This document shows, one piece after another, positions 216 to 48,743 of a DNA stretch of 52,814 nucleotides. A program made the position numbers and the translations under genes. The stretch comes from a virus (Duplodnaviria > Caudoviricetes): positions 1 to 52,814 of IMG/VR virus record IMGVR_UViG_3300025151_000048; one strand, given 5' to 3'. Below the pieces are notes generated by a model. The model saw only the letters and a program-made list of their open reading frames with translations. It was not told where the DNA came from and searched no databases. Positions within the stretch are counted from its first letter, which is position 1, and the number at the start of each line of letters is the position of its first letter.

Positions 216-3200
216 TTAATCGAATAAAAATGCAGTGGCAATACTGTCTTTTATTCTTTGGTTTTCTTCCCTTGTTGCTTTTGCTTTTCGGGCTTTTTCT
301 TTATTTTTTCTATCTTGCTCAGCGTCATATTCAAGCCTTTCTTCAAAGGTCATATTTGCTATTCTTTGTTCTTCTTTTCTTTTGTTTTCTTTTCTAGTCT
401 TTTTAGCTTTTTCAATACCTTCTTTTTTTCTTCTTTCCTTTGCTTCAACTTTTATTAAATCGTGTTCTTCGTTTTTAGCTCCAACTCCCCATGTTCTCCA
501 GCCTAATGCTAAAGCTATTCTTTGCCAAGCAGTATTTCTTTGGTCAAGCGCCTCTGCCACCCCATTAACTTCTATTAAGGCCCTATCTAATGGTAAATTA
601 AACAATGCCGATGCTAATTGTCCTACAACATTGTAGCTAGGGCTTATATTTAATCTACCATCCATTGTAACTTCCCACCCTCTTTTTGCTATAATATCTG
701 CATCAATTCTTGATGTTTGAATAGCGCCATATATTTTTCTAGCCTTACTGCCAATTGGAGGAGATATATTTATTGCTTCAATTATAGTATAAGCATGATC
801 AGCTAAAAATCCTTTTTGCTCTTGCTCATAGTATTCTCTAATTGTATTTTTAACAGTAGATAAAACAGCACCTTTTAATCCAGATCCTCTTAATAAAGTA
901 TCTATCATGCTATTAATTATGGTTTCCTGCTTTTTAGCTTGTCTAGCTAATTCTTTTTCTTCAGTTTCTTCTTCATCACCAAATCCTGGTACTAATGCAA
1001 ATAATGCATTTTGTAATGAAGCAAATATAAAGTTTTGTATCATACCATAATAAACTATCTTAGATATATTGGTTTTTGCATCCCCGCGTCCATTTATAAG
1101 GTCCTGACCAGCTTTTTTAATTAATCTTGAATATTGCATTGGAGTATTCTGGAAAGCCAATATAAGACGCCCTAATACGCTCGCTTGTTCTTGAGAAATT
1201 AACGATGGATCTGCAGATTGCTGATTCATATCAGATATTTTGCTAAAATCTGCCCAGGCTTGTGCTTCTGCTTCAGCTTGAGACATTCCTTGCTTTAAAT
1301 AAGTATTAATTCTATTTCTATAAAAAGTTGCACCACCACTAGAAATTGCAAAGTTATCTGCAAGTTGTGTTGGTGTAAAACCAATTTTTAATAAATAAGA
1401 TATAACACCTCTAACACCACCCCTTTTAGCAGCCTCTGCTAATTCAGCTTCCTGCACATCTCCTTTTAATCCACCTCTTCTTTGTTTTAATTTAGCTGAA
1501 TTCCATATAAATGCAAAGTCTGTCCAATATTGTTTTTGATTTGCAAATGCAATAGCAGATTTTAATGGATTATTATCTGACCAATTTATAAAGTTAAATG
1601 ATGATATAGTTTGTAATAACGCGGATCTTCTATTAAAGAACATTATAGTACCAATGGCATCATTAACCCAATTCATCCAACCATTAACTATTCTGTTTTG
1701 TCCAAATGTTCTATTTCTACCCGTTTTCATTCTATAAATAGAATCTTCTAAAGCCTCTCTATGTTTAGTACCATATAAAGCTTCAATCTTATTAAGGGTT
1801 TTTTCATCAAATATTAAATCAACATTTTCATTAAATTCAGATAAATACTCTTTTCTTAATACTTTATCAGCAAAGTCTCTATAATCTTGCATTATATTGC
1901 CAGAATCCCAAAATTCAGTAGGTTCAATATATTTGGTTCTTTTTGTAATAGATTGTACACCATCTGCAAAACCAGATAATTCAGAATCATTTTCTACAGT
2001 TTTATTTAATAAAGCAACATCTCTTTTTGATAATCCATATTTTGTCATATCATAACCAGACCTAGTAAATAATGTTACTCTAACTGCATTTTCATATGTA
2101 AAGTTTGTCCCTGGTATTTTTTTACCAAGCTTTCTTCTAAAAGGCTTACCCATTAAATTAGTTAATCTACTATAATCTTCTTTCATGGTTTGCCTAGCAG
2201 TTTCTAAAGCCGCTACACCTCTAGCATAAGGTGTCATAATATTATCTTCAATAAATTTTTGGTCTTTTTCACCTTGCTTGCCTTTACCAGCAAATGCATA
2301 TGCCGTTAGCCCTCTAAAATCTTCAGCAGAAGGCGGTATGTACCAATTTAAAAATGACCATTTATCTTTTTGCCTACCTTTAATTCTTGCTTGAATTTTT
2401 GAATACTGAGCTTCAGCTTTAATGCCTTTTTGCCTTTCAATCATTTGATTCATTTCTGCATTCAGCCCTTTGCTCCACGCAATCCTTGCTTGCTGTACTT
2501 TACTTTTTACGTCAAAATTATCTAATACATCTTTAACTGCTTTAACATTAGCAATAGCATCGTCAGCAAAATAAAAGTCATTATAACCTTCCGCAACTTT
2601 CCCAACTATCCAATCTGCTTTAGCTTGAGGGTCCCCATTTGCAAGCCCTGTAATATTTTCTAATTTTAAATCAATACCCATTCCTTTTAAAAATGCGTGT
2701 ATAGCAACCGCCGCCTCAGGATCCCTGGCTGTAAGTATAAACACATTTTCATTGCCAAACTTATCAACCGCTTTTTTAAGTTTATTAAACAATGGTCCAG
2801 GCTTGCCATCTACAACTTTATTAAATTCTGTATAATCAAACTCAGCCCCTTTGCTCATTAATTCATTATGTTTTTTAGCAAATTCAGTAGCATTAATTTT
2901 AAACTTAGTGCCATCAGGCATTGTAACACCAACTTTACTTTTACTAATAGCAACGGTGTCATCAAAATCTAAAACACTAATTCCTTTACGTTTTTTAGAA
3001 AAATCCCAAGTTCTACCTTTACTAAAAGCTATATCTGTACTTTCAAGATATTTAATTGTTTCACTAAGCTTTCTTTTATTAATTACTTTACCTGCTTCTT
3101 CATATGTCTTACCAATTTCTATTTTTTCCCCTTTAGGGTTAAGACTTACAATAGCTTTAATTCTTGGATCACCAAAAGTTAAAAAATTATAATATCTTTT

Positions 3201-6200
3201 CCACACTGGTTGTTCTAATGTGTAGTCTGCGGGCATAAATTGTGTTAGTCTTACTTCGTCTAAAACTTTATCCATTGTTTTAGGAATTAAAGACGTTTGA
3301 TATTTACTAAATAATTTATCAGCCAATGCATCTGCATCAGCATTTTTATTATTTACATAATAATCTATTAAGTTAACTATTACATAATTTGTAGGCATTA
3401 TATGCTCCCATCTATAATCAGAAGCTTTTAACCCTTTTTGTATCGAAGCATATTCTAAATTAGCGGCTCTTTTAATAGGTGATTGCATAGTTTGTTGCAT
3501 AGACATAATAGTCATACCCATGTCCATATTATCAAAAGATCTATCATTTTTAATAATCTTCATCATGTTTTTAACAAAGCCCTGCACTCTTTTTGCTTGC
3601 GCTTTTCTTTCATCAAAATCAAAATCATCCGAAAGTTCACCATTTTTATCAATTACAGAATTAGTTGCTTCTGGTAATAATGTATATTCACTAGGATCAA
3701 TTACTTTGCCATCAATTTTTAATTCAATTAATTGGCCTTTGCCGTCTAGCTTATATTCTATTTCACCCTCATATTCATTTACTATTGTATCAAAGAAATC
3801 CTTATTATTTTCAAATACTTGATAACCTTGTTTAGGTAATTTACCTTTAGGGGCATCAGGATATAATTTTTTCATTTCGGCATCAGTTCTTCTAACTATT
3901 TGCCCTTTTTCTATTTTAAAAGTTCTATTACCTATTCTACCTGATGTAGAAAACATTCCTTTACCTATAGAAAATAAATCTATAATAGCTTGTTTTTTGC
4001 CTTTCTCTGTTCTAAACCTTCTAACAAATCTACCAACTAATCCTCTTTGTTTTTTTATTCTATCAATATCGTCAAACCCTTCAGTTATAGGCTTATCTAA
4101 GTCTAATAGTCTTCTTACAGTCTCAGAGGTTTCAGCATTAACAAATTGGTCTTTAAGGAACTTTCCAAGTACTTTTTTATTAATAATAGGTAGTTTTTTA
4201 ACTACGGGTTTAGCTAAATTAAATAGTTTTGCATAATTATATAAATCGTTTGCAATAGCATTTATTTCTTTTTTCGTTAGAGCATCCCCATATACTTTTG
4301 TTAATTTACTTTTAAAGTATTCTTTCATTTCATTTCTAACCTCTTTCTCGCCTTCTTTATCTAACCCCTTAGGTATATCAACTTTCCCAACATCTAAAAC
4401 AGTTGTAAATTGAGTTAGCCTATCATAAAATATTTCTTTTTTAGCATCTGTTAAATTATTGACACCTTTACTCCAAGCTATATTTCTTGTGCCAAATTGC
4501 ATATCTAAATCATTAACAAATGCTTCGCCCTCATATCCCTCTTTTCTTAATACATCTGTTTGTAATTCAAAAGAAGCAGTTGAAGCCAGCCAATCAGCAT
4601 AAGATAGCACCCTAGCTCCATATACATTGGACGCTTCTCCTTCCGCCTTCATGTATTCTTTAAATTTTTTCCTAGCGTCTTCTTTGTCAATCTTTTTCCA
4701 TTTTCTATTTCTGGAATATATATTTTTAATTTTTTTACCTTGGCTTAACCCTTTATCTATAGCGTCATTATGTGCTCTAGCTTCAGCTACACTCATAAAC
4801 GCAGGTGAACCATCTGTATTTGTTGCTCTTTCTGTTAAAAATGGATATTTAGCATTTGCAGTTCCAATATCCATTCTATCCCACATTGCATCAAAAGTTG
4901 AATCTACAAAATTTTCAACATTGATTCTTTTTTGCTTATTTGATATTTTATCTTTCTTAGGATCTGTATTAAATTTATCACCTCTTTGCATTACATTTCT
5001 AAATAATAAAGAAACTTTTTGTTGATACTCTTTCGATAATTCTGTTCTAAACTCTGGAGTACCTATAGGATTTTTAAATTTACCAAGTTTTGTTTTAAAT
5101 GTTTTTAATATATTATTTTCAATTTCAGTTGTAATTTCAGTGGGAAGTGGGACTAACTTACCATCTGAATCTTTAAATTTTAAAGTATTAAGTAAATCTT
5201 TTTTCTTTTTTCTTTTCTTATTATCTTCCCCTCTTTTTTTATCATCATCAGTTGGGTCTGTATCAGTTATATTTTTTACTTGCGGAGCATTAGGATCTAA
5301 CCTTGCTGGTAATTGATTAAATGTTTGTTTAGCTAAAGTAAACACTCTAAAATATCCTCTATTTCTTACAAATTTATCTAAATCCTGTGTTTTTACAATA
5401 CCATCTTTACCAGGTTTTAAGTATTCTTGCTGAATCATAGTATATAATTCTGTAGCAACATCTCTTTCCCATTCGTCTTTAGTAACATTATTTCTATTCA
5501 TAGGATCAACACCGCTCCAAATATAATTAGCTTGTGATTTAATATAAGGCATCATTTCTTGCATCAATTCCGATTCCATCATATCCTCTACAAGATTCCC
5601 ATCAGAGTCTCTACTTAATTTTTCATTTAAAAAACTATTTAGTTTGTCTCTTTTTTCCTCTTCACTAATTCTACTATATCTTGAGCCGCTAGACCTATTT
5701 TCTTTTATAAATTTATTAAGCAAGCCTTCTAAATTAGTACCTTTTGACGCAGCTAAATCATATACACCCGCAGGGGCATCGGTGTCAATGTCTGAAATAA
5801 GAGTAGTAACCGCTGCACTTTGCTTAGCTTCTTTAATATCTTTCAATGTTAAATCACCTGCTTTAATTTTTTTACCAAGACCAACAACAAAATTATACAT
5901 GTCATTTTCACCTCTAAAATCAAAATTGTAATCAGCATCAAAATGCTTCTGTACCATTGTACCAAATAATAGGGATAATCCTTTATTTTTTTTCTCAGTT
6001 ACAAAATCAACATCTGAACGCCCAACATATTCTAAAAATACAGATATAACTTCTTTGGAGTCAAGTGATCCATCGCTATTATATATACGCCCATCTTTTA
6101 AAAATTCTTTATATAATTTTTTATCAACAGACTTTAAAGTAGTTAAAATTTGCTTTGATATATCTGCGAAAGCAACGTCATGGTCAGTACCAGAAAATAT

Positions 6201-9200
6201 ATCCCAAAATGCTTGATGACCAATTTCATGAGTTTTAATTTCAGACCTTTCATTAATAACTTGATTTTCAACTACAGCTATAGTAACTACATTTTTTATA
6301 GCGACTCCATCATTTTTACCAACTTTTAACCCCTTGATTAAATTATCTTTTAAATTTTTAACCGCATCTTCAATAGTCATAGTTTTACCATCCGGCATTT
6401 TATATTTACCATCTTCCATTAAAGTACCTTGCTCTTCTAATGTAGCTTTAGCAACTGCTGTTAAATCTAATTCATCATTAATATAATTTTCTGCATCTGC
6501 CACAGTATCAAATGATTGGAAATTATATCTATTTTTTACTCCTTTTTTAAGCTTAGCGTTATTTTCTTTAATTTTATCTGTCCAATATAAATCTGATGCT
6601 TCTCTTTCTAGTGCCGAACCTTTTGGGTCTTTACCATCAGCTATTAATTTTTGCTTAGCTTTGTCAATATATTGATTATAAAGCTTAGGATCTTTACCTG
6701 CTAATGCAATAAACTCAGTTCTAAATTGTTGCTTTGCTTTATCGCTTAATGCATTTGTTTTTATTGCATCAAGCTGGTTAAATTGATCTCTTAATAAATT
6801 AATTGCTCTGGCTTTATCTTCTTTAGACATTTCAGAATCAGGAATATTAAGAATTTCATTTGCAGTATTTTGCAATTCCATTTGTGCTTCAGTTATAGAA
6901 ACTATATTAGACGCAGCGCCAGCACCCATATGATTATTAATTAAATCAGTTTGCCTTTCCATTTCAGCATTATACTCTTGGTTTACTTGCTCTAATTCTT
7001 TTATATAAATAGCCCTTGTTCTATCTGAAGATCTACCGTCATTAATTTTTCTACTTAATTCTAATTTTTTATTAAATAATTCCCTTGTTTTCTTTAAAGA
7101 ATTTCTATCAGACATTCTAGACTGATACATTCCTTTTAAAAATGGAACTCCTGCAAATAATAATGTCATAGATGCACCAGAGAACCCTGCATGACCTATA
7201 TTATCTAAGAGGCCTATATTTTTACCCGACATTATTTCAACACCGTTTTGTAAACCCATAGTGGTTGTTTCACCTAATGTTTCTAAAAGTATTTCACTTC
7301 TTAGTGAGGGTAATTGAGAATTAATAAATGCGTTTTGGCCGCCTTCTAATAATTTATCTTGCCCATTGGCAACCCATCTTTGCTGAGCTCTTTTTAATAT
7401 AGGAACTGTTGTATAATGAGAAATTACACCTTCAATTCCACCATATCCAAGCGAGGTTAATAACATGTTAAGTTCAGAATAATCTGCCGTACCCTGCACC
7501 ATTTCTGATTGCATATCTGAATATTTACCACCCGCTGAAGAAGCCCCTATTGTGAGAGCCCCATATCCACCACTCATCATAATAGCAGCAAATATTGGTA
7601 ATTGTGTAGATGTTTCTTGAAGCATAAATCTACCAAATCTACTAGGGCTAGTAAAAGCACCATAATCTCCTGTAAATTCTACGTCTCTAGTATACTGTGC
7701 TCTTTCTCTTTGTGATAATTCATTATACCCTGTAAAAAAGCTTTGTACTCCTTCGCCTAATTTACCCTCAAAAGCTAAATGATCAACAGCCATTCCAGCC
7801 CAACCAAAAGGCGTTAAGTATTCTGTAATTTTATATCCAGTTTGCGCAATACCAAATGCAATATCACCAAACCCAAGCCCAATGTTACCCATATATTTTT
7901 CTCCTAATTGGTAATTCAAAGCAAAAGCTTGTCCTGCAATTTCATCATCAATAATTTCAGCGGCGGCATTATTTGCTTTTTCAGAGTATTCTTCTTGTAA
8001 TTTAAAGCGTGTTAACATATCTTGATATGCTAATGCATATATACCCGCAACATTAGAATTAATAATTTTACCATTTTCCAATACAACATCTTGACCTTCG
8101 CCAAAATCAGGTAAAAATAAACCTTTTTCAGTTGCAAATTGTGTAAACTTTTCTATTTGTTCTTCTGTAAATCTAATATTTTCTGCACCAAGAGGGTTTT
8201 GTATTTGTTCTTCAATTATACGTAAAATTTCTTTGTCTTGTTCAATATAACCAATATTAACATCTTGTTTAGTCATATTTTTATCATACTCTTTAAATTC
8301 ACGTAATTGAGAACTTACCTGACCAAGATAAAAGCGCCCTAATTCTTTGCCCCTATCACCCATTTCTGCAATATGTGTATCAACCCATTTAGCCTGATGT
8401 TCATTTATATGGTCAGTATATAAACGTTGTCTTACAATTTGTTGTGCAACTTTTTCAATAGTAATTTCTTCTTCTTCATCTAGTTTACCGCCATAATTAA
8501 CAAAAACACTTCTTAATTGATTTTCATCTAAATTTTCATTTTTAAGTTTTTCCGAAGTGCTATTTATTAAATCTGAATGAGGATATGTAGTAGTAGTCGT
8601 TCCTTCGTGTATAGTTGCTGTAGGTGAATGTTTTGAAGCAAATGTAACTGTTCGTGGGGATGTTGTGGTAACGGGTTTAAATAAATCTTCATTATTTAAA
8701 TATAATTTTTTGCCTTCCTCTCTAACAGGAGCCATTTCGCTTTCTTGTAAAGATTCATAATATGCGCTTGCTTCCAACCCTAAATGTTCCACTTGCCTCC
8801 ATACATCCCAAGAATCTATATTACCAGCTTCAATTTCTTTCTTTAAAAAATTATGTAATTTTTTATTATTTTCTTCTGCAAGTTTATTAGCCCCCTCTTC
8901 ATCTCTATAATCTAGCCAGTATTTACTTTCGCCATGTAACCCATCTAAATCAAATTCTAATACTATTTCTTCGCCAGATTTTTTACTTTTTATTTTAATT
9001 CTATCCCAGCCGACATCAGTTGCTTCTATTTTTAATCCTGGAATTTCACCTAAAATAGATTTAACCTTTGATAACCCATCATCTTCTTCACTGGTATATA
9101 ACTCGAATCCTTTGCCTTTAACTAGTTTAGTCTTACCCTCTTTATCCTGTTTTGTTGTAACACCTCTTGCTTGGTCAGTAAGAATTTCAGCAAGTTCATC

Positions 9201-9698
9201 AGCTGATTTATCAGTAAAGCCTTTAACTTCTTCATCTAGTTTAATTAATTGTCTAGATTTTATATCATAACCGTACTTACCAGTTTTAATTTTTTCAATA
9301 ATAAAAGCGTTATCCTTATCATCATGACTAAAACGTAATACCCCACCAGCTTTTTTAGCTAGTTCTATAAACAGTCCGCCTTCCCCAGTATAATTTTCCC
9401 AATCTGTTTTAGCAATATCACTAGGTAATTCTTCAAGTGTAATAACTCCGTCTCCATTATCTCTTTTTTTAACTATTTTATTAAAATATAGCTCATCTAC
9501 ATTTTGCCTACCATCTTGGTCTAACCCAATTGCTTCGGGAGCTTTTATAGTTAATCTTCTATCTAATATATTTGGTTCAGCAACCTCTGGAATATCTTCT
9601 ATTTCAGTATTTGCTACCTCCTCATTAAGGGGAATATTATCAAGCCACGAAAAATCTTGAACTTCTTCCGTAGTTTGCTTTAATAATGATCCTTTCAT
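216..9698 (-). CDS. Giant virion ejection/cargo protein (large polyvalent-type polyprotein): zincin metallopeptidase, sigma-region-2-like, EHxxP (HNH-like) and HAD phosphatase modules
   Basis: 3160 aa; third of three genes after the tail nozzle (T7 gp14-16/P22 gp7-20-16-like position); HEIGH at aa 1157; DFDDT..ILTAR..FADD HAD motifs from aa 2244; WEHIMP at aa 2097; Gly-rich hydrophobic segments around aa 600-860. Confidence 0.75.
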   Translation of the reverse strand: MKGSLLKQTTEEVQDFSWLDNIPLNEEVANTEIEDIPEVAEPNILDRRLTIKAPEAIGLDQDGRQNVDELYFNKIVKKRDNGDGVITLEELPSDIAKTDWENYTGEGGLFIELAKKAGGVLRFSHDDKDNAFIIEKIKTGKYGYDIKSRQLIKLDEEVKGFTDKSADELAEILTDQARGVTTKQDKEGKTKLVKGKGFELYTSEEDDGLSKVKSILGEIPGLKIEATDVGWDRIKIKSKKSGEEIVLEFDLDGLHGESKYWLDYRDEEGANKLAEENNKKLHNFLKKEIEAGNIDSWDVWRQVEHLGLEASAYYESLQESEMAPVREEGKKLYLNNEDLFKPVTTTSPRTVTFASKHSPTATIHEGTTTTTYPHSDLINSTSEKLKNENLDENQLRSVFVNYGGKLDEEEEITIEKVAQQIVRQRLYTDHINEHQAKWVDTHIAEMGDRGKELGRFYLGQVSSQLREFKEYDKNMTKQDVNIGYIEQDKEILRIIEEQIQNPLGAENIRFTEEQIEKFTQFATEKGLFLPDFGEGQDVVLENGKIINSNVAGIYALAYQDMLTRFKLQEEYSEKANNAAAEIIDDEIAGQAFALNYQLGEKYMGNIGLGFGDIAFGIAQTGYKITEYLTPFGWAGMAVDHLAFEGKLGEGVQSFFTGYNELSQRERAQYTRDVEFTGDYGAFTSPSRFGRFMLQETSTQLPIFAAIMMSGGYGALTIGASSAGGKYSDMQSEMVQGTADYSELNMLLTSLGYGGIEGVISHYTTVPILKRAQQRWVANGQDKLLEGGQNAFINSQLPSLRSEILLETLGETTTMGLQNGVEIMSGKNIGLLDNIGHAGFSGASMTLLFAGVPFLKGMYQSRMSDRNSLKKTRELFNKKLELSRKINDGRSSDRTRAIYIKELEQVNQEYNAEMERQTDLINNHMGAGAASNIVSITEAQMELQNTANEILNIPDSEMSKEDKARAINLLRDQFNQLDAIKTNALSDKAKQQFRTEFIALAGKDPKLYNQYIDKAKQKLIADGKDPKGSALEREASDLYWTDKIKENNAKLKKGVKNRYNFQSFDTVADAENYINDELDLTAVAKATLEEQGTLMEDGKYKMPDGKTMTIEDAVKNLKDNLIKGLKVGKNDGVAIKNVVTIAVVENQVINERSEIKTHEIGHQAFWDIFSGTDHDVAFADISKQILTTLKSVDKKLYKEFLKDGRIYNSDGSLDSKEVISVFLEYVGRSDVDFVTEKKNKGLSLLFGTMVQKHFDADYNFDFRGENDMYNFVVGLGKKIKAGDLTLKDIKEAKQSAAVTTLISDIDTDAPAGVYDLAASKGTNLEGLLNKFIKENRSSGSRYSRISEEEKRDKLNSFLNEKLSRDSDGNLVEDMMESELMQEMMPYIKSQANYIWSGVDPMNRNNVTKDEWERDVATELYTMIQQEYLKPGKDGIVKTQDLDKFVRNRGYFRVFTLAKQTFNQLPARLDPNAPQVKNITDTDPTDDDKKRGEDNKKRKKKKDLLNTLKFKDSDGKLVPLPTEITTEIENNILKTFKTKLGKFKNPIGTPEFRTELSKEYQQKVSLLFRNVMQRGDKFNTDPKKDKISNKQKRINVENFVDSTFDAMWDRMDIGTANAKYPFLTERATNTDGSPAFMSVAEARAHNDAIDKGLSQGKKIKNIYSRNRKWKKIDKEDARKKFKEYMKAEGEASNVYGARVLSYADWLASTASFELQTDVLRKEGYEGEAFVNDLDMQFGTRNIAWSKGVNNLTDAKKEIFYDRLTQFTTVLDVGKVDIPKGLDKEGEKEVRNEMKEYFKSKLTKVYGDALTKKEINAIANDLYNYAKLFNLAKPVVKKLPIINKKVLGKFLKDQFVNAETSETVRRLLDLDKPITEGFDDIDRIKKQRGLVGRFVRRFRTEKGKKQAIIDLFSIGKGMFSTSGRIGNRTFKIEKGQIVRRTDAEMKKLYPDAPKGKLPKQGYQVFENNKDFFDTIVNEYEGEIEYKLDGKGQLIELKIDGKVIDPSEYTLLPEATNSVIDKNGELSDDFDFDERKAQAKRVQGFVKNMMKIIKNDRSFDNMDMGMTIMSMQQTMQSPIKRAANLEYASIQKGLKASDYRWEHIMPTNYVIVNLIDYYVNNKNADADALADKLFSKYQTSLIPKTMDKVLDEVRLTQFMPADYTLEQPVWKRYYNFLTFGDPRIKAIVSLNPKGEKIEIGKTYEEAGKVINKRKLSETIKYLESTDIAFSKGRTWDFSKKRKGISVLDFDDTVAISKSKVGVTMPDGTKFKINATEFAKKHNELMSKGAEFDYTEFNKVVDGKPGPLFNKLKKAVDKFGNENVFILTARDPEAAVAIHAFLKGMGIDLKLENITGLANGDPQAKADWIVGKVAEGYNDFYFADDAIANVKAVKDVLDNFDVKSKVQQARIAWSKGLNAEMNQMIERQKGIKAEAQYSKIQARIKGRQKDKWSFLNWYIPPSAEDFRGLTAYAFAGKGKQGEKDQKFIEDNIMTPYARGVAALETARQTMKEDYSRLTNLMGKPFRRKLGKKIPGTNFTYENAVRVTLFTRSGYDMTKYGLSKRDVALLNKTVENDSELSGFADGVQSITKRTKYIEPTEFWDSGNIMQDYRDFADKVLRKEYLSEFNENVDLIFDEKTLNKIEALYGTKHREALEDSIYRMKTGRNRTFGQNRIVNGWMNWVNDAIGTIMFFNRRSALLQTISSFNFINWSDNNPLKSAIAFANQKQYWTDFAFIWNSAKLKQRRGGLKGDVQEAELAEAAKRGGVRGVISYLLKIGFTPTQLADNFAISSGGATFYRNRINTYLKQGMSQAEAEAQAWADFSKISDMNQQSADPSLISQEQASVLGRLILAFQNTPMQYSRLIKKAGQDLINGRGDAKTNISKIVYYGMIQNFIFASLQNALFALVPGFGDEEETEEKELARQAKKQETIINSMIDTLLRGSGLKGAVLSTVKNTIREYYEQEQKGFLADHAYTIIEAINISPPIGSKARKIYGAIQTSRIDADIIAKRGWEVTMDGRLNISPSYNVVGQLASALFNLPLDRALIEVNGVAEALDQRNTAWQRIALALGWRTWGVGAKNEEHDLIKVEAKERRKKEGIEKAKKTRKENKRKEEQRIANMTFEERLEYDAEQDRKNKEKARKAKATREENQRIKDSIATAFLFD

Positions 9699-13965: not shown

Positions 13966-16900
13966 TTAACAGTTATTTAATTGATTCATAGTCTTTATTT
14001 GAGTTATAATTCCATTTTCATAAACGACAAATTTAAATACACCGTTCATATTAGGCCAATTAGCATTAGTATTCCAATTTTGTATATTAAAAGTCCAACT
14101 ACAAGTATTATATGTAGTGGTACTAGGGTTTTGGCCACTTGATTGTATACAATCATTAGAATCAATATGATTAGAATTCCATGCAAATATACCATCATCG
14201 CTGTTGCCCATTGGAGTATCATCCATGTTATAAAGCTGTGTCCCAACTTGTATTCCATCCCCTGGCGCATATTTAAAACTAGTACCTATTCTATCGGTAT
14301 TTGTATATCCGCCAATTGATGCTAAAAATTCAAGAATTCCACATTTAGCTGTTTGCGCTCTATCTGCTGGGGCAGTTGATGAGTAAGCTGTTAGCAGGTT
14401 TAATACTGGTCCATTATTTTTACAAGCTATGCCGGTTGTTGCTGTAAATGTTATATAAGACGCAGGTTGAGTACATGCCGCCAATGTATTATATTGTGTT
14501 TTTGCAGTTATTTTACTATTTTCAACAGTTATAATATAATATGTATCAGGCACTGTAGCGGAGTTGTCATTTGCATTTAATGCACTATCACTTGGATCGC
14601 CTTGTCCTATATATAAATATTTACCATCCCATGCAGAACCAATTAAATTAAAGGGAGCAAATTCTTCATGCAGATAAGTACCTACTTCAATTCCCGCGCT
14701 AGCTAAGTGGTTGAATTTTTTAGACTCCTTAGTAATATTAGTAGCACCTACGGGATATTCATTATAAAATGTTTCAATAGCACATTTTACATTTTGATCA
14801 CTAGTTTCGGGTCTAATATCTGTAGTTCCGTTAGAGCCTCCCCATAAATACCAAAAATAACTTTTATAATTAGGTGTTTCAGTTGATTCTGTAGAACAAG
14901 AAGTATCTACACTTACTGTAATATTATATGTAGTAGGATTACTAGATGTTACAGTTGCATTACCTATACCCTGAACTGGGAATGCACTACTATCTATATT
15001 ATTGTCACAATTATCTACATACCTATTTGTTAATCCTTTTATTTTTTGGAACCATTTATTTTCTTTCTTTTTAAATTCTTTTATAGAACCTTCTTCAATA
15101 TCTGTATTTATATAATTAGTATACCAACCAGTTTTTGATAAAGTTTCACTATTAATTAGTGATGGCGTTATTTGCTGGTGGATTACTTGGTCCATAGTTA
15201 ATCCGCTTAATCCAGAAGACGTTCCGTATGTATATCTTCTAGAACTTGAGCCACTAAAGTTTAATGTTTTAAATCCTTTTACAGTTTCTGTGGCATCATT
15301 TAATACAACATTTACAGAACTATCATATTGTGTATCATATATATTATTATATGTATCATTAGAATATTCTTCCCAAATTAACCCTTTGTTAAAAGTATAA
15401 TACCTATCATTTATAGATACACCACTTTCCAAAGGATATACAGAACTACCTGATTTTGAATAATAAGATTTTCTACTAGTCCATCCACCGACAGTTTCTT
15501 TAAATGATAATGTTGTAGTATATATATTATCTGTAGTATCATCGGCCACCTCACAATGCGTTCTATCTTTAGGTGTTGAAGATAATTTATCTTGCCACTC
15601 CGCAGTTAAAGAATCTAATGTTAAATTATAATTTTCTTTATCATCATCATAACTACCTATAATTTTAGTACATACAGGCAAATTATCAGAAAAGAAATCA
15701 GCCATTCCTTTTAATGCAATATTAGTAATACCGTCTTGTGATAATCTAATTATTGCACCTCTATTTTTATCTGCAAAATAGCTTCTAAATCCATAAGCAG
15801 AAAATGACTCTGGATTTTTACTAATACCAAATTCACCAGCATAAGGCATTGCTTGCCCCAATACTTTGTTGTTAGATATAAGCTGTGGGTTCCCGCTGGC
15901 TTCAAATAAAGCATCTTTATTGGCTAATATTTGCAAACACTTATCTTCGCATAAGGTAATTAAATTGGTGTTCCTAGAATGCAGTTTTTGAATACTGCCA
16001 TATTCTGGGTTTAAGTCTTTTGTAATAGGTTCCCCTTGTATAAATTGATTAGTTCTATTTATACCAGACATAGAATTATATATACCAGAAAATATTAATC
16101 CACTGCCTCTTCTTTCTTCAGCATAAGGCCCTTCAAATATACTAGATACTTTTACACCTTTACCAACAATAGGGGCATTAAAATCATCTCTAATTCTATC
16201 AGATTCTACAGCATTACCGAATGAATAAACATTAGAATAATCTAATACTTTAGGTGAAGCGCCGTTAATTTCGGATATAGGAAATGCTTTACTTGCTTCA
16301 TAATATATATCAATATCAACAGCTTCTTTTGGCTCTGTTTCAAATATAGCTGGGTTTGTAGATGATAAAATAGAATTATTATCTGAAGATGAAGAATCTT
16401 CTGTTCGCACTTCAATACCCGCAAGCTTTCCTAAAGCAGTAGCAGATCCATCTCCAATCCATTCATCTCCAAAGCTACCCAGCGGCTCTTCTAATTCTAA
16501 GGCTATAGCTATATGCTTATTTTTTGAAGAATCTACCATGCAATTACTATCACAATCACTACATACAAATTTTTTTCTTCCTCTCCATTGTCCACATCTG
16601 TAATGGCGTTTAACCGTATATTCCCCTGAAACAAAATCAGCATTATCTGTACCAGCCTTACCAACTAATCTTATTTTAGCACCCTCAGCTAAATCAGTCA
16701 TAGGTTTACCAGTATATTGTAAACCATGAGTACTAAATTCTTCTTCATCAACAGTCCTACGCCCAACATAAACCATTGAAATATATTTCCCACCTACATA
16801 AGGGCGATTATAAACCTCATGCATTTTTGTCTCGGGGTCGCTATTAGGTGGGCCACCATGATTGCTGGTTGTATTTTTAGATCCATTTCCACCGCCTACA

Positions 16901-19647
16901 AGATCACCCATTAATTTATATTTACCATTACAAGGGCTCCATCCGCAGGCATCACCAGGATATACAGCAACTCTAGTGTCTGAACCTCTATCCCCCCAAT
17001 AAAAACCAAAACCATCAGATTCCTCATCACAATATAAATCCTCGTTTACAAATGTTCTGGTTCCTCCGTCTCTTTGACTTACATATATAGAAGCTGAAGT
17101 GCTATAATTTTTATTTAAAGTTGTAAAAGGTTTAACTATATTAGTTTCAAAATCAGTATCTTTATTTATTTTAACAAAAAACCTGCCTTCAAATTCTGGT
17201 AAATTATTAGGCATCCTTTTAAATAGCCTCATTGTAACTAATGTCCCATTGGGCAATCCATTAAGGCCCATAAATGCAGCAGAGCTTCCCATTTTTTTAT
17301 CTAATGTAACTTTATAATCTCTACTATCAGCATCACCCGTAACCGGGCCTCCGCTTAATACACCTAATAAATCGGTCTTATTAGAAGTATATAATATTTG
17401 TATCTCTACATCCCCATTAAAACCTTGTCTAAATTGTGGGTTTTCATCAACTTTTGGACCTTTAAAATTTAATTCTGAAAAGTCAGAATCAAATCCAGAG
17501 ACAACTTCAATTTCGTAATCAACAGCAATACATTTTTTAGTATTAGCTATAAAATCAGGGGCTGAGTTTTCAATATCTAATATTTTGTATCTACAAGGGC
17601 CAATAGAAGGATTATTATTATCATGCTGTTTTTTTAGTATAAGATACGTTTCCATATCAACTTTATTTCTTTCTGATGAAGGAAAGCTAAGCCATACATT
17701 CCCATCTTCTGCTGGATAATATCTATCTAATGCTAAATTATAATATTCATTAGATGTATCTTTAATAAAGTATTTAGCATGAGTAATCCAACTTGGCATA
17801 TTAGGTATCGTTTCTAATTTAGCCGTTAATTTATTTACTTTATCAGCATTCTGTTTATCAATTTGGATAGTTGCATCAGAATTTGTAAATACAGGTGTTT
17901 GTCTACCATAGGTATCTTGAAATACAATTCCTAATTGATATTTTCTTATTGTTTTAATTGAGCTAAAAGGCCTAAGAGAATTATTGTTTTCAGCAGCATC
18001 AATTTCAGGGTCATTACCTGGGTGGGTATTATTAGATGTATTTAATATTAATTTAGATTTTGGTACATCAAAATTTTGTGTATAATTAGCATATATTAAT
18101 CTATTTGCAGATATTTCTTGCGCTAAAGCTTTTCTTGGAACATTATCCCATGGTCTAAGCAATTGGTTTGCCTCTACAGTTTTGCCAATTAATTCTGTCT
18201 TTAATTGAAAAGATGTTATTGATTTGTCTTTTATAGTATCAACTACATATATATTATTTGATCTAGATTTTTTAAATAAAATATCTACTTCAACAACCTC
18301 TGCACTTCCCCATTCCCAATCTTTTATTATTAATGACCTTATATGGTTTTGCATACCTAAATTATATCCGTCTGAAGATAAATATTCAAAATCATCGCCT
18401 TCAAAAACAACTTGTGTAAATGGTGAAAAACAAGAGTACTCCCCGTTTTCATATTTCCATCTATATGCAAACCTAGGAAATTCAAATTCAAACATTGGAT
18501 CTTTTTCTTCCAATAACGCTTCCCATGTTATTAAAATAGATTCATTATTAATATCAACTTGCCTTAATATATTTGAAGGTATAGATAATATTCTTCCCGT
18601 AATATATTGTCCATTTGGATTTTGGGTAAGTACTATTCTTATTTGATATTCATCTTCATTATTATTATCACCTACAATACTACCTGATAAAACTATTATA
18701 TCTCCTTCTAACCAACCAGTAGGGGCTTGATTAAAAGGACCTATAGTTACAGTTTCCATATTGTCTTGGTATTTTCTATTTTCTTCATCTAATAAAGAAT
18801 CTTCATACCATTCGCCATATGTAGGCAAAGGCCTATATCTTACTGCTAAATATTCAGTAGCTGGATATGTTATATATGTAAAATTTTCATATGTATCTCC
18901 AGTTTCTGGGTAATTACTTGTGAAATTATATATAGTGGATATTGGCGTAACCCCAGTTCCTGGTACTTCTACGCCCTCTGAAGACCTAGTGGATGTTGCA
19001 ACGTCAATTGCCGGTGCGGTTAAAGGAGATTTTTTAATTACTGTTATGTCAGCTTCAACAAAATCTGCGCCCAAAGGAGTTTCATATTCTCCATTAGAAG
19101 TATTATATGTGGGTATTTTAGAATGTATATGAAAAGTACTAGAACCTTTTTTAAATTTTTTTATATTTATTTTTTTTGGCTCTGTTTGATTATCAGTCCA
19201 AAATAATAAATCATCTACTATATTTATACCAGTTATATGATTTTTACTTTTAAAACTAAGTATACCTTTAGTGTCAACTAAAATAGGTACAACTACTTTT
19301 GTTTTGGTATTATATTCTGCTATTGCGCTAACATTATCACTTGCAATAAACCAGTATATACACTCAGTAGGCTCATGCCTTATAGATCCAATACAAACAG
19401 GATTTGATAAACTACTTATATAATCACTATCAGCCCAATCAGATGTAGATACAATATTGCTTATGCCGCTACCTAATCCTTTTTTCTGAGTATTACCTTT
19501 GATGTTTTGCAATGCGCCAACATGACTATCTTCAGATGTAGCCACTGTAACATTTAATGCATCTCTATACTCGCCATTTGGTACCATTCTTTCGTCGATG
19601 TCTTTATTCATTCGACCCGACGTAAAGTTATGAATTAATTCCGGCAT
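13966..19647 (-). CDS. Tail stabilisation / nozzle (muzzle) protein
   Basis: 1893 aa; N-terminal FTSGRMNKDIDERMVPNGEYRDALN and LLFWTDNQTEPKKINI, typical of crAss-like/P22 gp10-like nozzle proteins; follows the ring proteins. Confidence 0.75.
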   Translation of the reverse strand: MPELIHNFTSGRMNKDIDERMVPNGEYRDALNVTVATSEDSHVGALQNIKGNTQKKGLGSGISNIVSTSDWADSDYISSLSNPVCIGSIRHEPTECIYWFIASDNVSAIAEYNTKTKVVVPILVDTKGILSFKSKNHITGINIVDDLLFWTDNQTEPKKINIKKFKKGSSTFHIHSKIPTYNTSNGEYETPLGADFVEADITVIKKSPLTAPAIDVATSTRSSEGVEVPGTGVTPISTIYNFTSNYPETGDTYENFTYITYPATEYLAVRYRPLPTYGEWYEDSLLDEENRKYQDNMETVTIGPFNQAPTGWLEGDIIVLSGSIVGDNNNEDEYQIRIVLTQNPNGQYITGRILSIPSNILRQVDINNESILITWEALLEEKDPMFEFEFPRFAYRWKYENGEYSCFSPFTQVVFEGDDFEYLSSDGYNLGMQNHIRSLIIKDWEWGSAEVVEVDILFKKSRSNNIYVVDTIKDKSITSFQLKTELIGKTVEANQLLRPWDNVPRKALAQEISANRLIYANYTQNFDVPKSKLILNTSNNTHPGNDPEIDAAENNNSLRPFSSIKTIRKYQLGIVFQDTYGRQTPVFTNSDATIQIDKQNADKVNKLTAKLETIPNMPSWITHAKYFIKDTSNEYYNLALDRYYPAEDGNVWLSFPSSERNKVDMETYLILKKQHDNNNPSIGPCRYKILDIENSAPDFIANTKKCIAVDYEIEVVSGFDSDFSELNFKGPKVDENPQFRQGFNGDVEIQILYTSNKTDLLGVLSGGPVTGDADSRDYKVTLDKKMGSSAAFMGLNGLPNGTLVTMRLFKRMPNNLPEFEGRFFVKINKDTDFETNIVKPFTTLNKNYSTSASIYVSQRDGGTRTFVNEDLYCDEESDGFGFYWGDRGSDTRVAVYPGDACGWSPCNGKYKLMGDLVGGGNGSKNTTSNHGGPPNSDPETKMHEVYNRPYVGGKYISMVYVGRRTVDEEEFSTHGLQYTGKPMTDLAEGAKIRLVGKAGTDNADFVSGEYTVKRHYRCGQWRGRKKFVCSDCDSNCMVDSSKNKHIAIALELEEPLGSFGDEWIGDGSATALGKLAGIEVRTEDSSSSDNNSILSSTNPAIFETEPKEAVDIDIYYEASKAFPISEINGASPKVLDYSNVYSFGNAVESDRIRDDFNAPIVGKGVKVSSIFEGPYAEERRGSGLIFSGIYNSMSGINRTNQFIQGEPITKDLNPEYGSIQKLHSRNTNLITLCEDKCLQILANKDALFEASGNPQLISNNKVLGQAMPYAGEFGISKNPESFSAYGFRSYFADKNRGAIIRLSQDGITNIALKGMADFFSDNLPVCTKIIGSYDDDKENYNLTLDSLTAEWQDKLSSTPKDRTHCEVADDTTDNIYTTTLSFKETVGGWTSRKSYYSKSGSSVYPLESGVSINDRYYTFNKGLIWEEYSNDTYNNIYDTQYDSSVNVVLNDATETVKGFKTLNFSGSSSRRYTYGTSSGLSGLTMDQVIHQQITPSLINSETLSKTGWYTNYINTDIEEGSIKEFKKKENKWFQKIKGLTNRYVDNCDNNIDSSAFPVQGIGNATVTSSNPTTYNITVSVDTSCSTESTETPNYKSYFWYLWGGSNGTTDIRPETSDQNVKCAIETFYNEYPVGATNITKESKKFNHLASAGIEVGTYLHEEFAPFNLIGSAWDGKYLYIGQGDPSDSALNANDNSATVPDTYYIITVENSKITAKTQYNTLAACTQPASYITFTATTGIACKNNGPVLNLLTAYSSTAPADRAQTAKCGILEFLASIGGYTNTDRIGTSFKYAPGDGIQVGTQLYNMDDTPMGNSDDGIFAWNSNHIDSNDCIQSSGQNPSTTTYNTCSWTFNIQNWNTNANWPNMNGVFKFVVYENGIITQIKTMNQLNNC

Positions 19648-29957: not shown

Positions 29958-30232
29958 TACTTAGATCTTCTTTCTGCAAACCCACTAAAAGATTCAACTT
30001 TTTCTTCTTTTTTAGGTTTGTTATTAAGCATATCTTCTTCTTCTTGTATTCTATTTAATATTTCAAAAGCATCAAATATTGCTAACTTTTTTGTTGCTGC
30101 AGCATTTTTTAATCTATCAGCTGATATATCATCATCTGAATCAACAATAGGTTCTTTAGCAACTTTTATTAATTCATCTACTGCTTTATGCCCAGCTTGG
30201 ATTATATTTTTTTTCGTCTCCTTGATATTCAT
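29957..30232 (-). CDS. Probable terminase small subunit
   Basis: 91 aa helical protein overlapping the terL start. Confidence 0.5.
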   Translation of the reverse strand: MNIKETKKNIIQAGHKAVDELIKVAKEPIVDSDDDISADRLKNAAATKKLAIFDAFEILNRIQEEEDMLNNKPKKEEKVESFSGFAERRSK

Positions 30233-30782
30233 ATTTAATTGTAATAAAGTGTGTTGGTATTCTATATAGTCTTTTACCTTCTATTATAAATTCATATTCA
30301 CAATTAGGTCTAAACCCAATTAAAGAATCTTTATATATACCTTTTTCATTTAAATCTGGGTCTACATATTTTATAATTCCTCTTAATGGTATTTCTTTTT
30401 CAGTAGAAAACATATCAGTATTTTCTAACGGATGTACAAAATTATATCCTTTAACCGGTTTCCATTCACCATCTCTTTTATATGCAAATATTTGGTCAGG
30501 CATAACAAAGTACATATCCTCTTTATAAAAAGATTTAGAATTTTTTTCTCTACCTTTTATATCATGCCATCTTCTAAATACATTATGGTGTACAATTACT
30601 TCATCACCTTGCCTTATCTCAGTACAGCCAACTGTTGGTGTTTCTAATACTATTGCATTTCTGCTAACATTTTGATGTGTATATATCTCTGTATTTAATA
30701 TAAGAGTTGTGCCATCTATATCTTTAGTATTATTGTATCTGGTATTTTTAGGTTTAATTATAAAATTGGTTACGCTACGCAT
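30186..30782 (-). CDS. Tandem two-domain GroES-like co-chaperonin
   Basis: Two GroES-like halves: FIIKP..GTTLILNT..AIVL..IRQGDEVIV and FVHPL..RGIIKY..IYKDSLIGF..EFIIEGKRLY. Confidence 0.6.
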   Translation of the reverse strand: MRSVTNFIIKPKNTRYNNTKDIDGTTLILNTEIYTHQNVSRNAIVLETPTVGCTEIRQGDEVIVHHNVFRRWHDIKGREKNSKSFYKEDMYFVMPDQIFAYKRDGEWKPVKGYNFVHPLENTDMFSTEKEIPLRGIIKYVDPDLNEKGIYKDSLIGFRPNCEYEFIIEGKRLYRIPTHFITIKYEYQGDEKKYNPSWA

Positions 30783-43879: not shown

Positions 43880-44133
43880 TCTACCAATACTACATCTCCT
43901 AAATTTATAACTGTGTATAATTTATCTTTATAGGAAATACCATGACCAGCATGTTTGTCGTAAAAGATAATATCGTCTTTACTAACTCCCAGTACTTTGT
44001 CACCCACGCTAATAACTTTAGCTTTTTTGTACCTAACCTCAGTATCTTTAGCTTCTGCTATAACGAGGCCGCCAACTTCTCTTGGCTCCTCTTTTATCTT
44101 TTCTATTATTATATAGTAGTTTATTGCCTTCAT
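43876..44133 (-). CDS. groES: Co-chaperonin GroES
   Basis: Mobile loop VGGLVIA, KAKVISVG, DIIFYDKHAG, DVVLVE; start moved to 44133 (ATGA overlap with the groEL stop). Confidence 0.9.
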   Translation of the reverse strand: MKAINYYIIIEKIKEEPREVGGLVIAEAKDTEVRYKKAKVISVGDKVLGVSKDDIIFYDKHAGHGISYKDKLYTVINLGDVVLVE

Positions 44134-47095: not shown

Positions 47096-47127
47096 TACAT
47101 TTCATTTGCGAATAGTAATTGATAATA
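47096..47127 (+). promoter_or_regulatory. Early promoter-like motif TACA-N7-TGCG-N10-GATAATA (copy 1)
   Basis: Five copies with identical spacing, each just upstream of a plus-strand gene. Confidence 0.75.
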
Positions 47128-47153
47128 ATAATGTAACAAATAAATAATAAAGT

Positions 47154-47405
47154 ATGATATTAGTAAATGTAAGTAAGAGAGGTACATTAAAATTCCAACT
47201 AAAAGATGGTAGACATGTATTGAGTTATAATTCTGGATATGTCAGAATGGATAGTGGTAGAAGTGATAGACTTTACCAACTAAATAAAGTAAGAAGAATT
47301 GAATTTCCAAATAGTACTTTTTATACATATGAAAGAGTTTTAATTCCTTGTCCTAAACAAAGATATAAATACCTATTAAACTTTGAAATGAGAAATTGTA
47401 AATAA
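47154..47405 (+). CDS. Early hypothetical protein
   Basis: 83 aa ORF after promoter motif. Confidence 0.65.
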   Translation: MILVNVSKRGTLKFQLKDGRHVLSYNSGYVRMDSGRSDRLYQLNKVRRIEFPNSTFYTYERVLIPCPKQRYKYLLNFEMRNCK

Positions 47406-47407
47406 TT

Positions 47408-47451
47408 TACATTTGTAAACATTGAGAGTTAGAGGTATACATATGTAAACA
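47408..47451. repeat. Palindromic direct repeat TACATWTGTAAACA x2 (candidate operator)
   Basis: 47408-47421 and 47438-47451, 30 bp period; extra GTAAACA at 47461. Confidence 0.55.
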
Positions 47452-47480
47452 AATTAGTAAGTAAACAAAATTACTACTTT

Positions 47481-47512
47481 TACAAACCAAATGCGAACTA
47501 AATAAGATAATA
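47481..47512 (+). promoter_or_regulatory. Early promoter-like motif (copy 2)
   Basis: TACA-aaccaaa-TGCG-aactaaataa-GATAATA. Confidence 0.75.
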
Positions 47513-47542
47513 ATAATAAATAAGTAAATTAAATCTAAAGTT

Positions 47543-47848
47543 ATGAAAACTAAACAATTAAGTAAGACAATTGCTAAACTGTCTCAAAAAGAATTAGCAG
47601 AAATTTTCCCGCCAATTACAAGAAAAAACTTTGTTGTAAGAAAATCTTGGCTAGGTAGAAACCAGATTATAACATTTGTTAACAATAAAAACGTTAAAAT
47701 CACTTATAATCATGATGAAGTTTTAAAGGTAATGTTGCCAAAACTAAACATAATGCCTTGCTGGATTAAGCGTGGTTATTGGAGTCAATCAACTGACATG
47801 CCAACTAATGTTAGAGATATTGTACTTGACAGAGTAGAATTATCTTAA
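47543..47848 (+). CDS. Early hypothetical protein
   Basis: 101 aa ORF after promoter motif. Confidence 0.7.
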   Translation: MKTKQLSKTIAKLSQKELAEIFPPITRKNFVVRKSWLGRNQIITFVNNKNVKITYNHDEVLKVMLPKLNIMPCWIKRGYWSQSTDMPTNVRDIVLDRVELS

Positions 47849-47854
47849 AACAAC

Positions 47855-47900
47855 TGATATGACGGTCTTTAGGTGAGTTCGATTCTCACCATATCAACTA
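47855..47900 (+). ncRNA. Miniature tRNA-like element (acceptor stem + T-arm only)
   Basis: TGATATG/CATATCA 7 bp, 11 nt linker, GTGAG-TTCGATT-CTCAC, then A-CTA; intergenic. Confidence 0.65.
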
Positions 47901-47919
47901 ACAATTAAAATTAAATAAA

Positions 47920-48615: not shown

Positions 48616-48741
48616 ATGAAAAGAGATTTATATAGATTTGCAAAAGCAAGAAAATACGGTGAAAGAATTATATTGTGGGAAGACGAATGGTATAGAAAAT
48701 ACAATAAAAATTACAATGTAAGTGCGAAACTAAATGGATAA
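48616..48741 (+). CDS. 41 aa hypothetical peptide (not in ORF track)
   Basis: MKRDLYRFAKARKYGERIILWEDEWYRKYNKNYNVSAKLNG; fills the gap. Confidence 0.5.
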   Translation: MKRDLYRFAKARKYGERIILWEDEWYRKYNKNYNVSAKLNG

Positions 48742-48743
48742 TA
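48712..48743 (+). promoter_or_regulatory. Early promoter-like motif (copy 3)
   Basis: TACA-atgtaag-TGCG-aaactaaatg-GATAATA. Confidence 0.75.

What the first reader, a model, noticed from the sequence alone, without database searches (positions are those of the whole stretch)
4482..5738. Sigma-factor-like module embedded in the injected virion protein
Seen: between the first two SKG motifs, ELMQEMMPYIKSQANY..TKDEWERDVATELYTMIQQEY..QDLDKFVRNRGYFRVFTLAK (nt ~5330-5570). By eye this follows the helix pattern of sigma70 region 2 (L...LV.SIA..Y / .DL.QE...L..A...F / F..YA...IR..I). No virion RNA polymerase is recognisable, unlike crAss or N4 phages. Inference: the phage may inject a pre-made sigma-like factor that redirects host RNA polymerase to its non-canonical early promoters. 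The similarity is weak and unverified.
Basis: inference. Interest (0 to 1): 0.82.

Follow-up and report, generated by a model that had tools for sequence, protein, structure and literature searches.

The report
Sigma-like domain inside giant phage protein
A giant protein of an uncultured marine phage, probably carried in its particle, contains a small helical domain that looks most like the part of bacterial sigma factors that grips RNA polymerase, but the likeness is weak and no complete sigma factor is present.

Summary
The ORF ends a phage structural gene block syntenic with Cellulophaga phage phi38:1.

No sequence method finds sigma in this window. Pfam, NCBIfam and PHROGs give nothing, and profile-profile scores equal shuffles.

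Other evidence points weakly to sigma domain 2:
- Protein-language-model features are nearest to Sigma70_r2 clusters (0.94).
- Docking on a flavobacterial beta-prime fragment got weak support (0.48; best control 0.00).
- In a sister clade, the module at the same position matches a sigma-2 profile above all shuffles.

Verdict: partly supported. A sigma-2-only module is plausible, comparable to T4 gp55, but it is not a whole sigma factor. Packaging, injection and promoter reading are untested. This scan noted the same idea on other genomes before.

The parts
216..9698 (-). Giant ORF, 3160 aa, last gene of the structural block. It is the positional equivalent of phi38:1 gp101, which is annotated 'structural protein'.
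4473..5738 (-). The module, aa 1321-1742, bounded by AASKG (aa 1316-1320) and IAWSKG (aa 1740-1745).
5310..5738 (-). N-domain, aa 1321-1463: five predicted helices, sigma-2-like by predicted fold and by language-model features.
5322..5570 (-). Three-helix core, aa 1377-1459.
5202..5309 (-). Charged linker, aa 1464-1499 (pI 9.5), pLDDT under 50, variable among relatives.
4473..5201 (-). [not shown]
4464..4481 (-). Boundary motif IAWSKG. The family form [RK][VIG][AKS][FW]S is present at this alignment position in 20 of 22 giants. Candidate processing site (inferred).
5739..5753 (-). Upstream boundary AASKG, read A-x-S-S/A-G/S before TNL in relatives.
6216..6230 (-). HEIGH zincin-type motif (aa 1157-1161), about 160 residues upstream of the module and nearly invariant in the family. 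Candidate processing protease (inferred).
47096..47126 (+). Promoter-like site TACA-N7-TGCGAA-N8-GATAAT, copy 1. Any link to the module is inference only.
47481..47511 (+). Promoter-like site, copy 2.
48712..48742 (+). Promoter-like site, copy 3.
50175..50205 (+). Promoter-like site, copy 4.
52266..52296 (+). Promoter-like site, copy 5 (2 mismatches).

Best explanation
Residues ~1321-1463 of the giant protein form a very diverged helical domain of the sigma-70 domain-2 type. A disordered charged linker joins it to a conserved 243-residue domain of unrecognised fold (aa 1500-1742). The pair sits as one module inside a multi-domain protein that is probably packed in the capsid and leaves it with the DNA. 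The most likely working is as follows. Once in the cell, possibly after being cut out at the conserved [RK][VI][AK][FW]S boundary motifs, the sigma-2-like domain docks on the clamp helices of the host RNA polymerase beta-prime subunit. T4 gp55, a sigma-2-only factor, does the same. The module thereby takes hold of host transcription at entry. It is not a complete sigma factor, because no sigma-3 or sigma-4 was recognised. If promoter reading occurs, the novel C-subdomain would have to stand in for sigma-4, as gp33 does for gp55. Shown: the domain exists, is strongly conserved, and its predicted fold and language-model features are closest to sigma-2. Inferred: packaging, cleavage, delivery, polymerase binding and any promoter specificity.
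Confidence: 0.45

Rival explanations
1. The N-domain is an ordinary helical bundle with a structural role in the capsid interior or the ejection apparatus, such as a spacer, an oligomerisation unit or a channel-wall unit. Its likeness to sigma-2 is the coincidence expected for three to five packed helices.
Against: Two methods that share no model, AF2 with VIA and ESM features on the single sequence, pick the same family out of thousands. The whole sigma-2 domain of several ECF factors is covered, for example 80 of 80 residues of the SigE N-domain and AlgU 5-95. The positional equivalent in clade B carries the most conserved sigma-2 sequence motif above all shuffles. The near-invariance of surface-type polar, aromatic and basic residues suggests a conserved partner rather than a spacer.
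Confidence: 0.35
2. The domain is sigma-2-like and binds the beta-prime clamp helices, but as a decoy. It blocks host sigma factors, giving host shut-off or a pause of transcription at entry, and reads no promoter itself.
For: Only domain 2 is recognisable, and no sigma-4 was found by sequence. The docking result, weak as it is, concerns binding only. The window's third helix lacks the sigma 'FSTYA..WWIRQ' letters that clade B partly keeps.
Against: The invariant aromatic and basic third helix (KFVRNRGYFRVF) looks more like a nucleic-acid-facing surface than is needed for a plug. Five copies of a conserved, non-host-type promoter-like site with a -10-like GATAAT need some reader. The strongly conserved C-subdomain is unexplained by a plug.
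Confidence: 0.12
3. The giant protein hides an unrecognised polymerase, for example in its most conserved C-terminal 750 residues. The sigma-2-like domain is then its built-in promoter-recognition part, in the way the sigma-like fifth subunit serves the phiKZ non-virion polymerase.
Against: There is no DxDGD-type metal motif in the large ORFs. There is no PF00940 match (weak test). The whole-family profile has no PDB sequence hit at E<=1. There are no Pfam or PHROG hits.
Confidence: 0.05

Closest known systems
Sigma-70 family, domain sigma-2 (regions 1.2 and 2.1-2.4; Pfam PF04542), especially ECF factors (AlgU 8z6g_B, SigK 4nqw_A, SigW 5wuq_A, SigE N-domain 8b3z_A) and sigma70 1sig_A
   Same: The predicted helix arrangement is the same. 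Whole sigma-2 domains superpose on aa ~1322-1464 at rmsd 2.8-3.1 A. The middle helix is acidic and the last helix aromatic and basic. Docking on beta-prime is weakly supported.
   Different: No sequence or profile similarity in this window. The domain has about 50 extra residues in loops. It is embedded in the middle of a 3160-aa protein rather than being a free 20-70 kDa factor. No sigma-3 or sigma-4 was recognised.
T4 gp55 with gp33: a sigma-2-only late factor plus a separate flap-binding protein unrelated to sigma-4 (PMC7892883, passages read)
   Same: It is a diverged sigma-R2 homology domain without sigma-4. In gp55 the acidic residues of one helix contact the clamp helices, and a second, structurally unrelated part takes the place of sigma-4. 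That is the role I propose for the C-subdomain.
   Different: gp55 is a free protein made late in infection, not a virion component. It carries a helix-loop-helix and a sliding-clamp-binding tail, for which I have no evidence here. gp55 did not appear in my fold lists, and similarity of the C-subdomain to gp33 was not seen.
Virion-delivered transcription machinery: N4 virion RNA polymerase and crAss-like phage phi14:2 gp66 (recalled, not read here)
   Same: A giant protein at the end of the structural genes is thought to be ejected with the DNA so that early genes can be transcribed before any phage protein is made.
   Different: Those proteins are polymerases themselves. Here no polymerase is recognisable. 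The module would have to use the host core enzyme.
Free-standing phage ECF-like sigma factors (phiEco32 gp36, identical to SU10 gp32)
   Same: They are phage-encoded sigma-family proteins of a podovirus. The SU10 proteomics table lists the sigma factor with one peptide (PMC4281155, passages).
   Different: They are complete, sequence-recognisable sigma factors, encoded as separate middle genes and used for middle and late promoters.

Membership tests
Sigma-70 family, domain sigma-2 (PF04542) | Sequence match to the family HMM at or above its cut-off | tested here: not met
   No Sigma70 family at E<=10 for aa 1320-1738 or aa 1357-1477. No PF04542 match at E<=10 in six frames of the record, while the control rang in 11 of 14 genomes. 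NCBIfam shows none. HMMER's filters drop most matches above E of about 0.1.
Sigma-70 family, domain sigma-2 (PF04542) | Profile-profile similarity to an alignment of sigma-2 domains | tested here: not met
   For the window's clade, hhalign scores were 11.3 (121 of 150 shuffles as high) and 12.1 (34 of 100). The positional equivalent in clade B does pass: 25.5, P 5.8e-4, 0 of 100 shuffles.
Sigma-70 family, domain sigma-2 (PF04542) | Sigma-2 fold: helices 1.2, 2.1, 2.2 and 2.3-2.4 in the family's topology | tested here: inconclusive
   [not shown]
Sigma-70 family, domain sigma-2 (PF04542) | Binds the beta-prime clamp helices of core RNA polymerase | tested here: inconclusive
   Complex prediction gave weak support: 0.48 against a best control of 0.00. 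The mark was reached by 58 of 80 solved and 2 of 110 mismatched pairs. At 0.60 or under it was reached by 7 of the 80 and by both mismatches. Contacts agree in at least 76% and the partner's pLDDT is at least 75. No interface was given and no experiment was done.
Sigma-70 family, domain sigma-2 (PF04542) | Conserved region 2.3/2.4 residues that melt and read the -10 element | not testable with these tools
   Only ranges of the structural alignments are returned. The third helix is invariant and rich in F, Y and R, but a residue-by-residue equivalence could not be established.
Complete sigma-70-type sigma factor | Sigma-4 domain (helix-turn-helix for -35 and beta-flap; Pfam Sigma70_r4, name recalled) by sequence | tested here: not met
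   No such family at E<=10 over aa 1320-1738 or in NCBIfam.
Complete sigma-70-type sigma factor | Sigma-3 or sigma-4 fold in the C-terminal half of the module | tested here: inconclusive
   [not shown]
T4 gp55-type sigma-2-only factor | Helix-loop-helix after the last sigma-2 helix and a sliding-clamp-binding tail | not tested
   After aa 1459 the model is disordered (pLDDT under 50 for model residues 144-179). No clamp-binding motif was searched for.
Packaged or ejected internal virion protein | Gene in the structural block, collinear with a known virion protein gene | tested here: met
   The order is terminase, portal, capsid-type proteins, a 1893-aa homologue of phi38:1 gp97, four small genes, then the giant. 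This matches phi38:1 gp90-gp101.
Packaged or ejected internal virion protein | Protein detected in purified particles, or lost from them on ejection | not testable with these tools
   The phage is uncultured (IMG/VR record). phi38:1 gp101 is only annotated 'structural protein' by similarity, and the similarity to it is one 61-residue stretch.

The most novel reading that the evidence does not exclude
The phage ships a ready-made, split sigma substitute inside its capsid. A zincin embedded in the same polyprotein (HEIGH, aa 1157) would cut at the conserved [RK][VI][AK][FW]S linkers and release a two-part factor. One part is a sigma-2-like domain that grips the beta-prime clamp helices and reads the -10-like GATAAT. 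The other is a domain of new fold that replaces sigma-4 and reads the upstream TGCGAA and TACA boxes. Host core polymerase would then be redirected to five non-host-type early promoters before any phage gene is expressed.
Probability: 0.12. Interest if true: 0.9.

Novelty: new variant of a known kind. Interest (0 to 1): 0.6.

Why it matters
Phages are known to start their programme in three ways. They use host holoenzyme on host-like promoters, inject a whole polymerase (N4, crAss-like; recalled), or inject an enzyme that modifies the host polymerase (T4 Alt; recalled). A capsid-borne sigma-type domain would be a fourth way, delivering only the specificity or docking subunit. In three full-text searches I found no paper describing a sigma domain built into a virion protein. 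The family is confined to uncultured marine phages of flavobacteria, so it bears on how abundant ocean phages take over their hosts. The C-subdomain is also a confidently predicted, conserved domain without a known fold. The claim is directly testable with a cultured relative.

Tried and rejected
Sequence searches that gave nothing:
- Pfam and PHROGs on the whole 3160-aa protein gave only PASTA at E 0.77.
- Pfam on six typed module segments of relatives gave only FluMu_N at E 0.14.
- Pfam on six whole relatives gave nothing relevant.
- NCBIfam gave one irrelevant lipoprotein match at E 0.0023.
- The whole-family profile against PDB sequences gave 0 hits at E<=1.
- tblastn of all three thirds of the protein against 50,697 phage records gave no match.

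Standalone homologues:
- phmmer of the module against 1.84 billion representatives gave 7 hits, all giants or one fragment.
- The profile of the N-domain against proteins of 82-280 aa gave 4 hits, all fragments on contigs of about 1 kb or less.

Fold searches without a usable answer:
- Foldseek PDB on the whole module: best E 0.16.
- Foldseek BFVD: best E 0.056; a Vibrio phage sigma factor at rank 41 with E 0.48 is noise.
- ESM Atlas on the C-subdomain: no usable hit.

Other tests:
- hhalign of clade A against clade B found no similarity.
The three related IMG/VR records reached by the search for related loci are 57%, 63% and 100% complete and hold no copy of the motif. The two close ones are fragments that end 1.6-2 kb after the giant gene, so the test is uninformative.
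- My first pattern had the wrong spacing (N9) and found nothing in the window. It was corrected to N8.
- The phage GroEL found no bacterial relative in genome contigs, so no host-like genome handle was obtained.
- Supplementary files of papers were not consulted. The virion proteomes of the Cellulophaga phages may be in such files.

Full report
WHAT IS THERE. The window carries a 3160-codon ORF on the minus strand (216-9698). SKG occurs at aa 1318, 1743, 2226, 2282 and 2409, so the stretch lies between the first two. The record is an IMG/VR virus contig of exactly the window's length. It is linear and 87% complete by CheckV.

CONTEXT. PHROGs name the upstream genes as terminase large subunit, portal and several 'virion structural proteins'. 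There is also a 1893-aa protein (13966-19647), a tail-fibre protein, and phage GroEL and GroES. The 1893-aa protein matches 87 phage records by tblastn. The best are Cellulophaga phages phi38:1 and phi40:1 (Pervagoviridae, Callevirus), phi18:3, phi19:3, phi13:2 and Tenacibaculum phage Gundel. In phi38:1 the gene order is the same. The last gene, gp101 (1691 aa, annotated 'structural protein'), ends 37 nt before the end of the record, which is where the window has its giant. BLASTP of the two finds only a 61-residue Gly-rich hydrophobic stretch (aa 688-747, E 2e-5). 'Virion protein' is therefore an inference from position, and 'injected' is a further inference.

THE FAMILY. A word-indexed search with aa 1320-1740 found 17 other proteins, all from metagenomes and nearly all of 2,700-3,350 residues. 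An exhaustive phmmer search against 1.84 billion representatives found 7, again all giants or a fragment. The proteins fall into two clades. In clade A (the window plus P0002-P0013) the whole module is conserved at 41-73% identity. In clade B (P0014-P0022) only the second half of the module (aa ~1500-1742) aligns, at 34-39% identity. The first half is replaced by a different conserved sequence at the same position. No standalone small homologue exists in either search. The three thirds of the giant have no tblastn match in 50,697 phage records.

SEQUENCE TESTS FOR SIGMA. These are negative for the window:
- Pfam and PHROGs on the whole protein gave nothing.
- Pfam on the module at E<=10 gave nothing.
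- NCBIfam gave nothing.
- PF04542 in six frames of the record gave nothing, while the control rang in 11 of 14 genomes.
- The family profile against all PDB sequences gave 0 hits at E<=1.

I then built sigma alignments from tool-fetched genes. The first used six E. coli sigma factors. The second was a 32-sequence sigma-2 alignment: 5 E. coli sequences plus 27 from five genomes. hhalign of the clade-A N-domain scored 11.3 and 12.1, reached by 121 of 150 and 34 of 100 column shuffles. That is no signal, and the second alignment is in a different register from the structural one.

STRUCTURE. AF2 on aa 1321-1742 with 18 rows gave mean pLDDT 74.6 and pTM 0.54. The model has two bodies joined by a disordered stretch, model residues 144-179.

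LANGUAGE-MODEL FEATURES. The window's 150 N-domain residues alone are nearest to named Atlas clusters that carry Sigma70_r2. The scores are 0.94, 0.94 and 0.93, and two of the three clusters are viral. Twenty of 30 hits are in that set, and recognition is 2602. The shared-feature count of 125 of 256 is low, and the tool says 4-10% of shuffled proteins reach 0.9. By itself this is only a lead. The C-subdomain gave no usable hit.

DOCKING. The N-domain was tested against residues 200-400 of Flavobacterium johnsoniae beta-prime, chosen to include the clamp helices. The numbering was assumed from E. coli by recall. The verdict was weak support:
- The median score was 0.48 (runs 0.64, 0.40, 0.48) and the best of 3 controls was 0.00.
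- Contacts agree in at least 76%, and the partner's pLDDT is at least 75.
- The mark was reached by 58 of 80 solved complexes and 2 of 110 mismatched pairs. At 0.60 or under it was reached by only 7 of those 80 and by both mismatches that passed.
- The beta-prime piece folded poorly (pLDDT 45-49).

Such a pass may also reflect memory of solved sigma/beta-prime complexes. If so, it shows likeness rather than binding.

THE SISTER CLADE. The clade-B sequence at the same place reads, for example, '...FLIKSYNPAGGTKLSTYIYGQIDNRLQGVI'. hhalign places it on sigma regions 2.1-2.4, with this motif on 'AVDKFDP.RG.KFSTYA.WWIRQ'. Against six E. coli sigmas the score is 24.2 (P 0.006), and 0 of 150 shuffles reach it. 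Against the 32-sequence profile the score is 25.5 (P 5.8e-4, probability 29%), and 0 of 100 shuffles reach it (mean 11.5, sd 2.2, max 16.5). The signal rose in P-value and probability with the better profile. With all filters off, the best local match to the sigma-2 HMM anywhere in 5 of the 9 clade-B giants is this very motif at HMM positions 45-60, although every score is negative. Single-sequence Pfam does not see it.

Two clades of one giant-protein family therefore each carry something sigma-2-like at the same position between homologous flanks. One shows it by sequence profile, the other by predicted fold and language-model features. The caveats are real. The two are not demonstrably homologous to each other (hhalign probability 0.2%). 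MAFFT aligns them one helix out of step with the sigma mapping. Clade-B rows were also part of the alignment used for the first fold.

HOW IT MOST LIKELY WORKS. I put about 65% on the N-domain truly having the sigma-2 fold. I put about 45% on the fuller statement that it docks on host polymerase after delivery. The best analogue is T4 gp55. [quoted passage not shown] Its three acidic residues on H3 contact the clamp helices and it reads a -10-like element. The unrelated gp33 clamps the flap-tip helix in place of sigma-R4. Here the middle helix (KDEWERDVATELYTMIQQEY) is acidic. The third (QDLDKFVRNRGYFRVFTLAKQT) is invariant and rich in aromatic and basic residues. The conserved basic C-subdomain (pI 9.35) could play the gp33 or sigma-4 part, but nothing shows that.

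The module's borders carry a recurring motif, [RK][VIG][AKS][FW]S. It is present at alignment position ~1740 in 20 of 22 giants and at ~2406 in 17 of 22. At ~2231 the script counted 6 of 22, but that count omits strict-motif copies a few residues upstream, including the window's own at aa 2223. A nearly invariant HEIGH lies upstream. Release by proteolysis is plausible but untested.

TACA-N7-TGCGAA-N8-GATAAT occurs 5 times forward, 0 reverse and 0 in the control. All copies are in the plus-strand region 47-52.3 kb. I could not test any link to the module. The motif is absent from three related IMG/VR records and from phi38:1, and the two close relatives are fragments.

WHAT IS KNOWN AND WHAT IS NEW. 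Three full-text searches returned no paper describing a sigma domain within a virion protein (listings and abstracts seen). The nearest item is the free-standing ECF-like sigma of SU10 and phiEco32, listed with one peptide in the SU10 proteomics table (PMC4281155, passages). This scan's own notebook shows the same idea raised and followed up on at least seven other phage genomes. It also records one case of a complete ECF sigma inside an ejection protein, where a later check put the bold reading at 10 in 100. Those are unchecked AI notes, not independent evidence, and a sequence look-up found no look-alike window. For this window the evidence is weaker than a 'real copy'. I file it as a new variant of a known kind: a sigma-2-like domain in an unprecedented setting, with membership in the sigma family not established.

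LIMITS.

Noticed in passing
window 216-9698 (-); aa ~1740, ~2223 and ~2406: A short motif, [RK][VIG][AKS][FW]S (IAWS/IAFS in the window, VAFS in most relatives, KFS in clade B), recurs at the borders of conserved blocks. It is at alignment position ~1740 in 20 of 22 giants and at ~2406 in 17 of 22. At ~2231 the script's cluster count was 6 of 22, which leaves out strict copies a few residues upstream such as the window's own at aa 2223. It flanks the module and the HAD-like domain and looks like a polyprotein processing or linker code.
   Followed up: partly
window 6216-6230 (-), aa 1157-1161: The HEIGH zincin-type motif is nearly invariant across the family, about 160 residues upstream of the module. 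No Pfam peptidase family is reported. It could be the protease for the linker motifs.
   Followed up: no
window 2484-3014 (-), aa ~2230-2405: HAD-type motifs (VLDFDDT, FILTAR, YFADD) are nearly invariant in the family alignment, yet no HAD family appears in Pfam at E<=1 for the whole protein.
   Followed up: no
[not shown]
   Followed up: partly
window 47096-52296 (+): There are five copies of TACA-N7-TGCGAA-N8-GATAAT, all on the plus strand in the divergent small-gene region. None is on the reverse strand or in the reversed-pattern control, and none is in three related IMG/VR records or phi38:1.
   Followed up: partly
window 216-2465 (-), aa 2412-3160; L009, L010: The C-terminal ~750 residues are the most conserved part of the family, with long invariant runs such as GTIMFFNRRSALLQ and NFINWSDNN. 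They have no family, PDB-sequence or phage-record match. Related contigs L009 and L010 end 1.6-2 kb after this gene, and the window ends 215 nt after it. As in phi38:1, a genome end probably lies just downstream.
   Followed up: no
window 7458-7637 (-), aa 688-747: This Gly-rich hydrophobic stretch is the only segment above the hydropathy threshold in the protein. It is the one part with detectable similarity to phi38:1 gp101 (E 2e-5).
   Followed up: partly
window 44130-45695 (-) and 30186-30782 (-): The phage encodes GroEL and a GroES-like protein just before the terminase, as in phi38:1. The GroEL found no bacterial relative by the pattern search of genome contigs.
   Followed up: no
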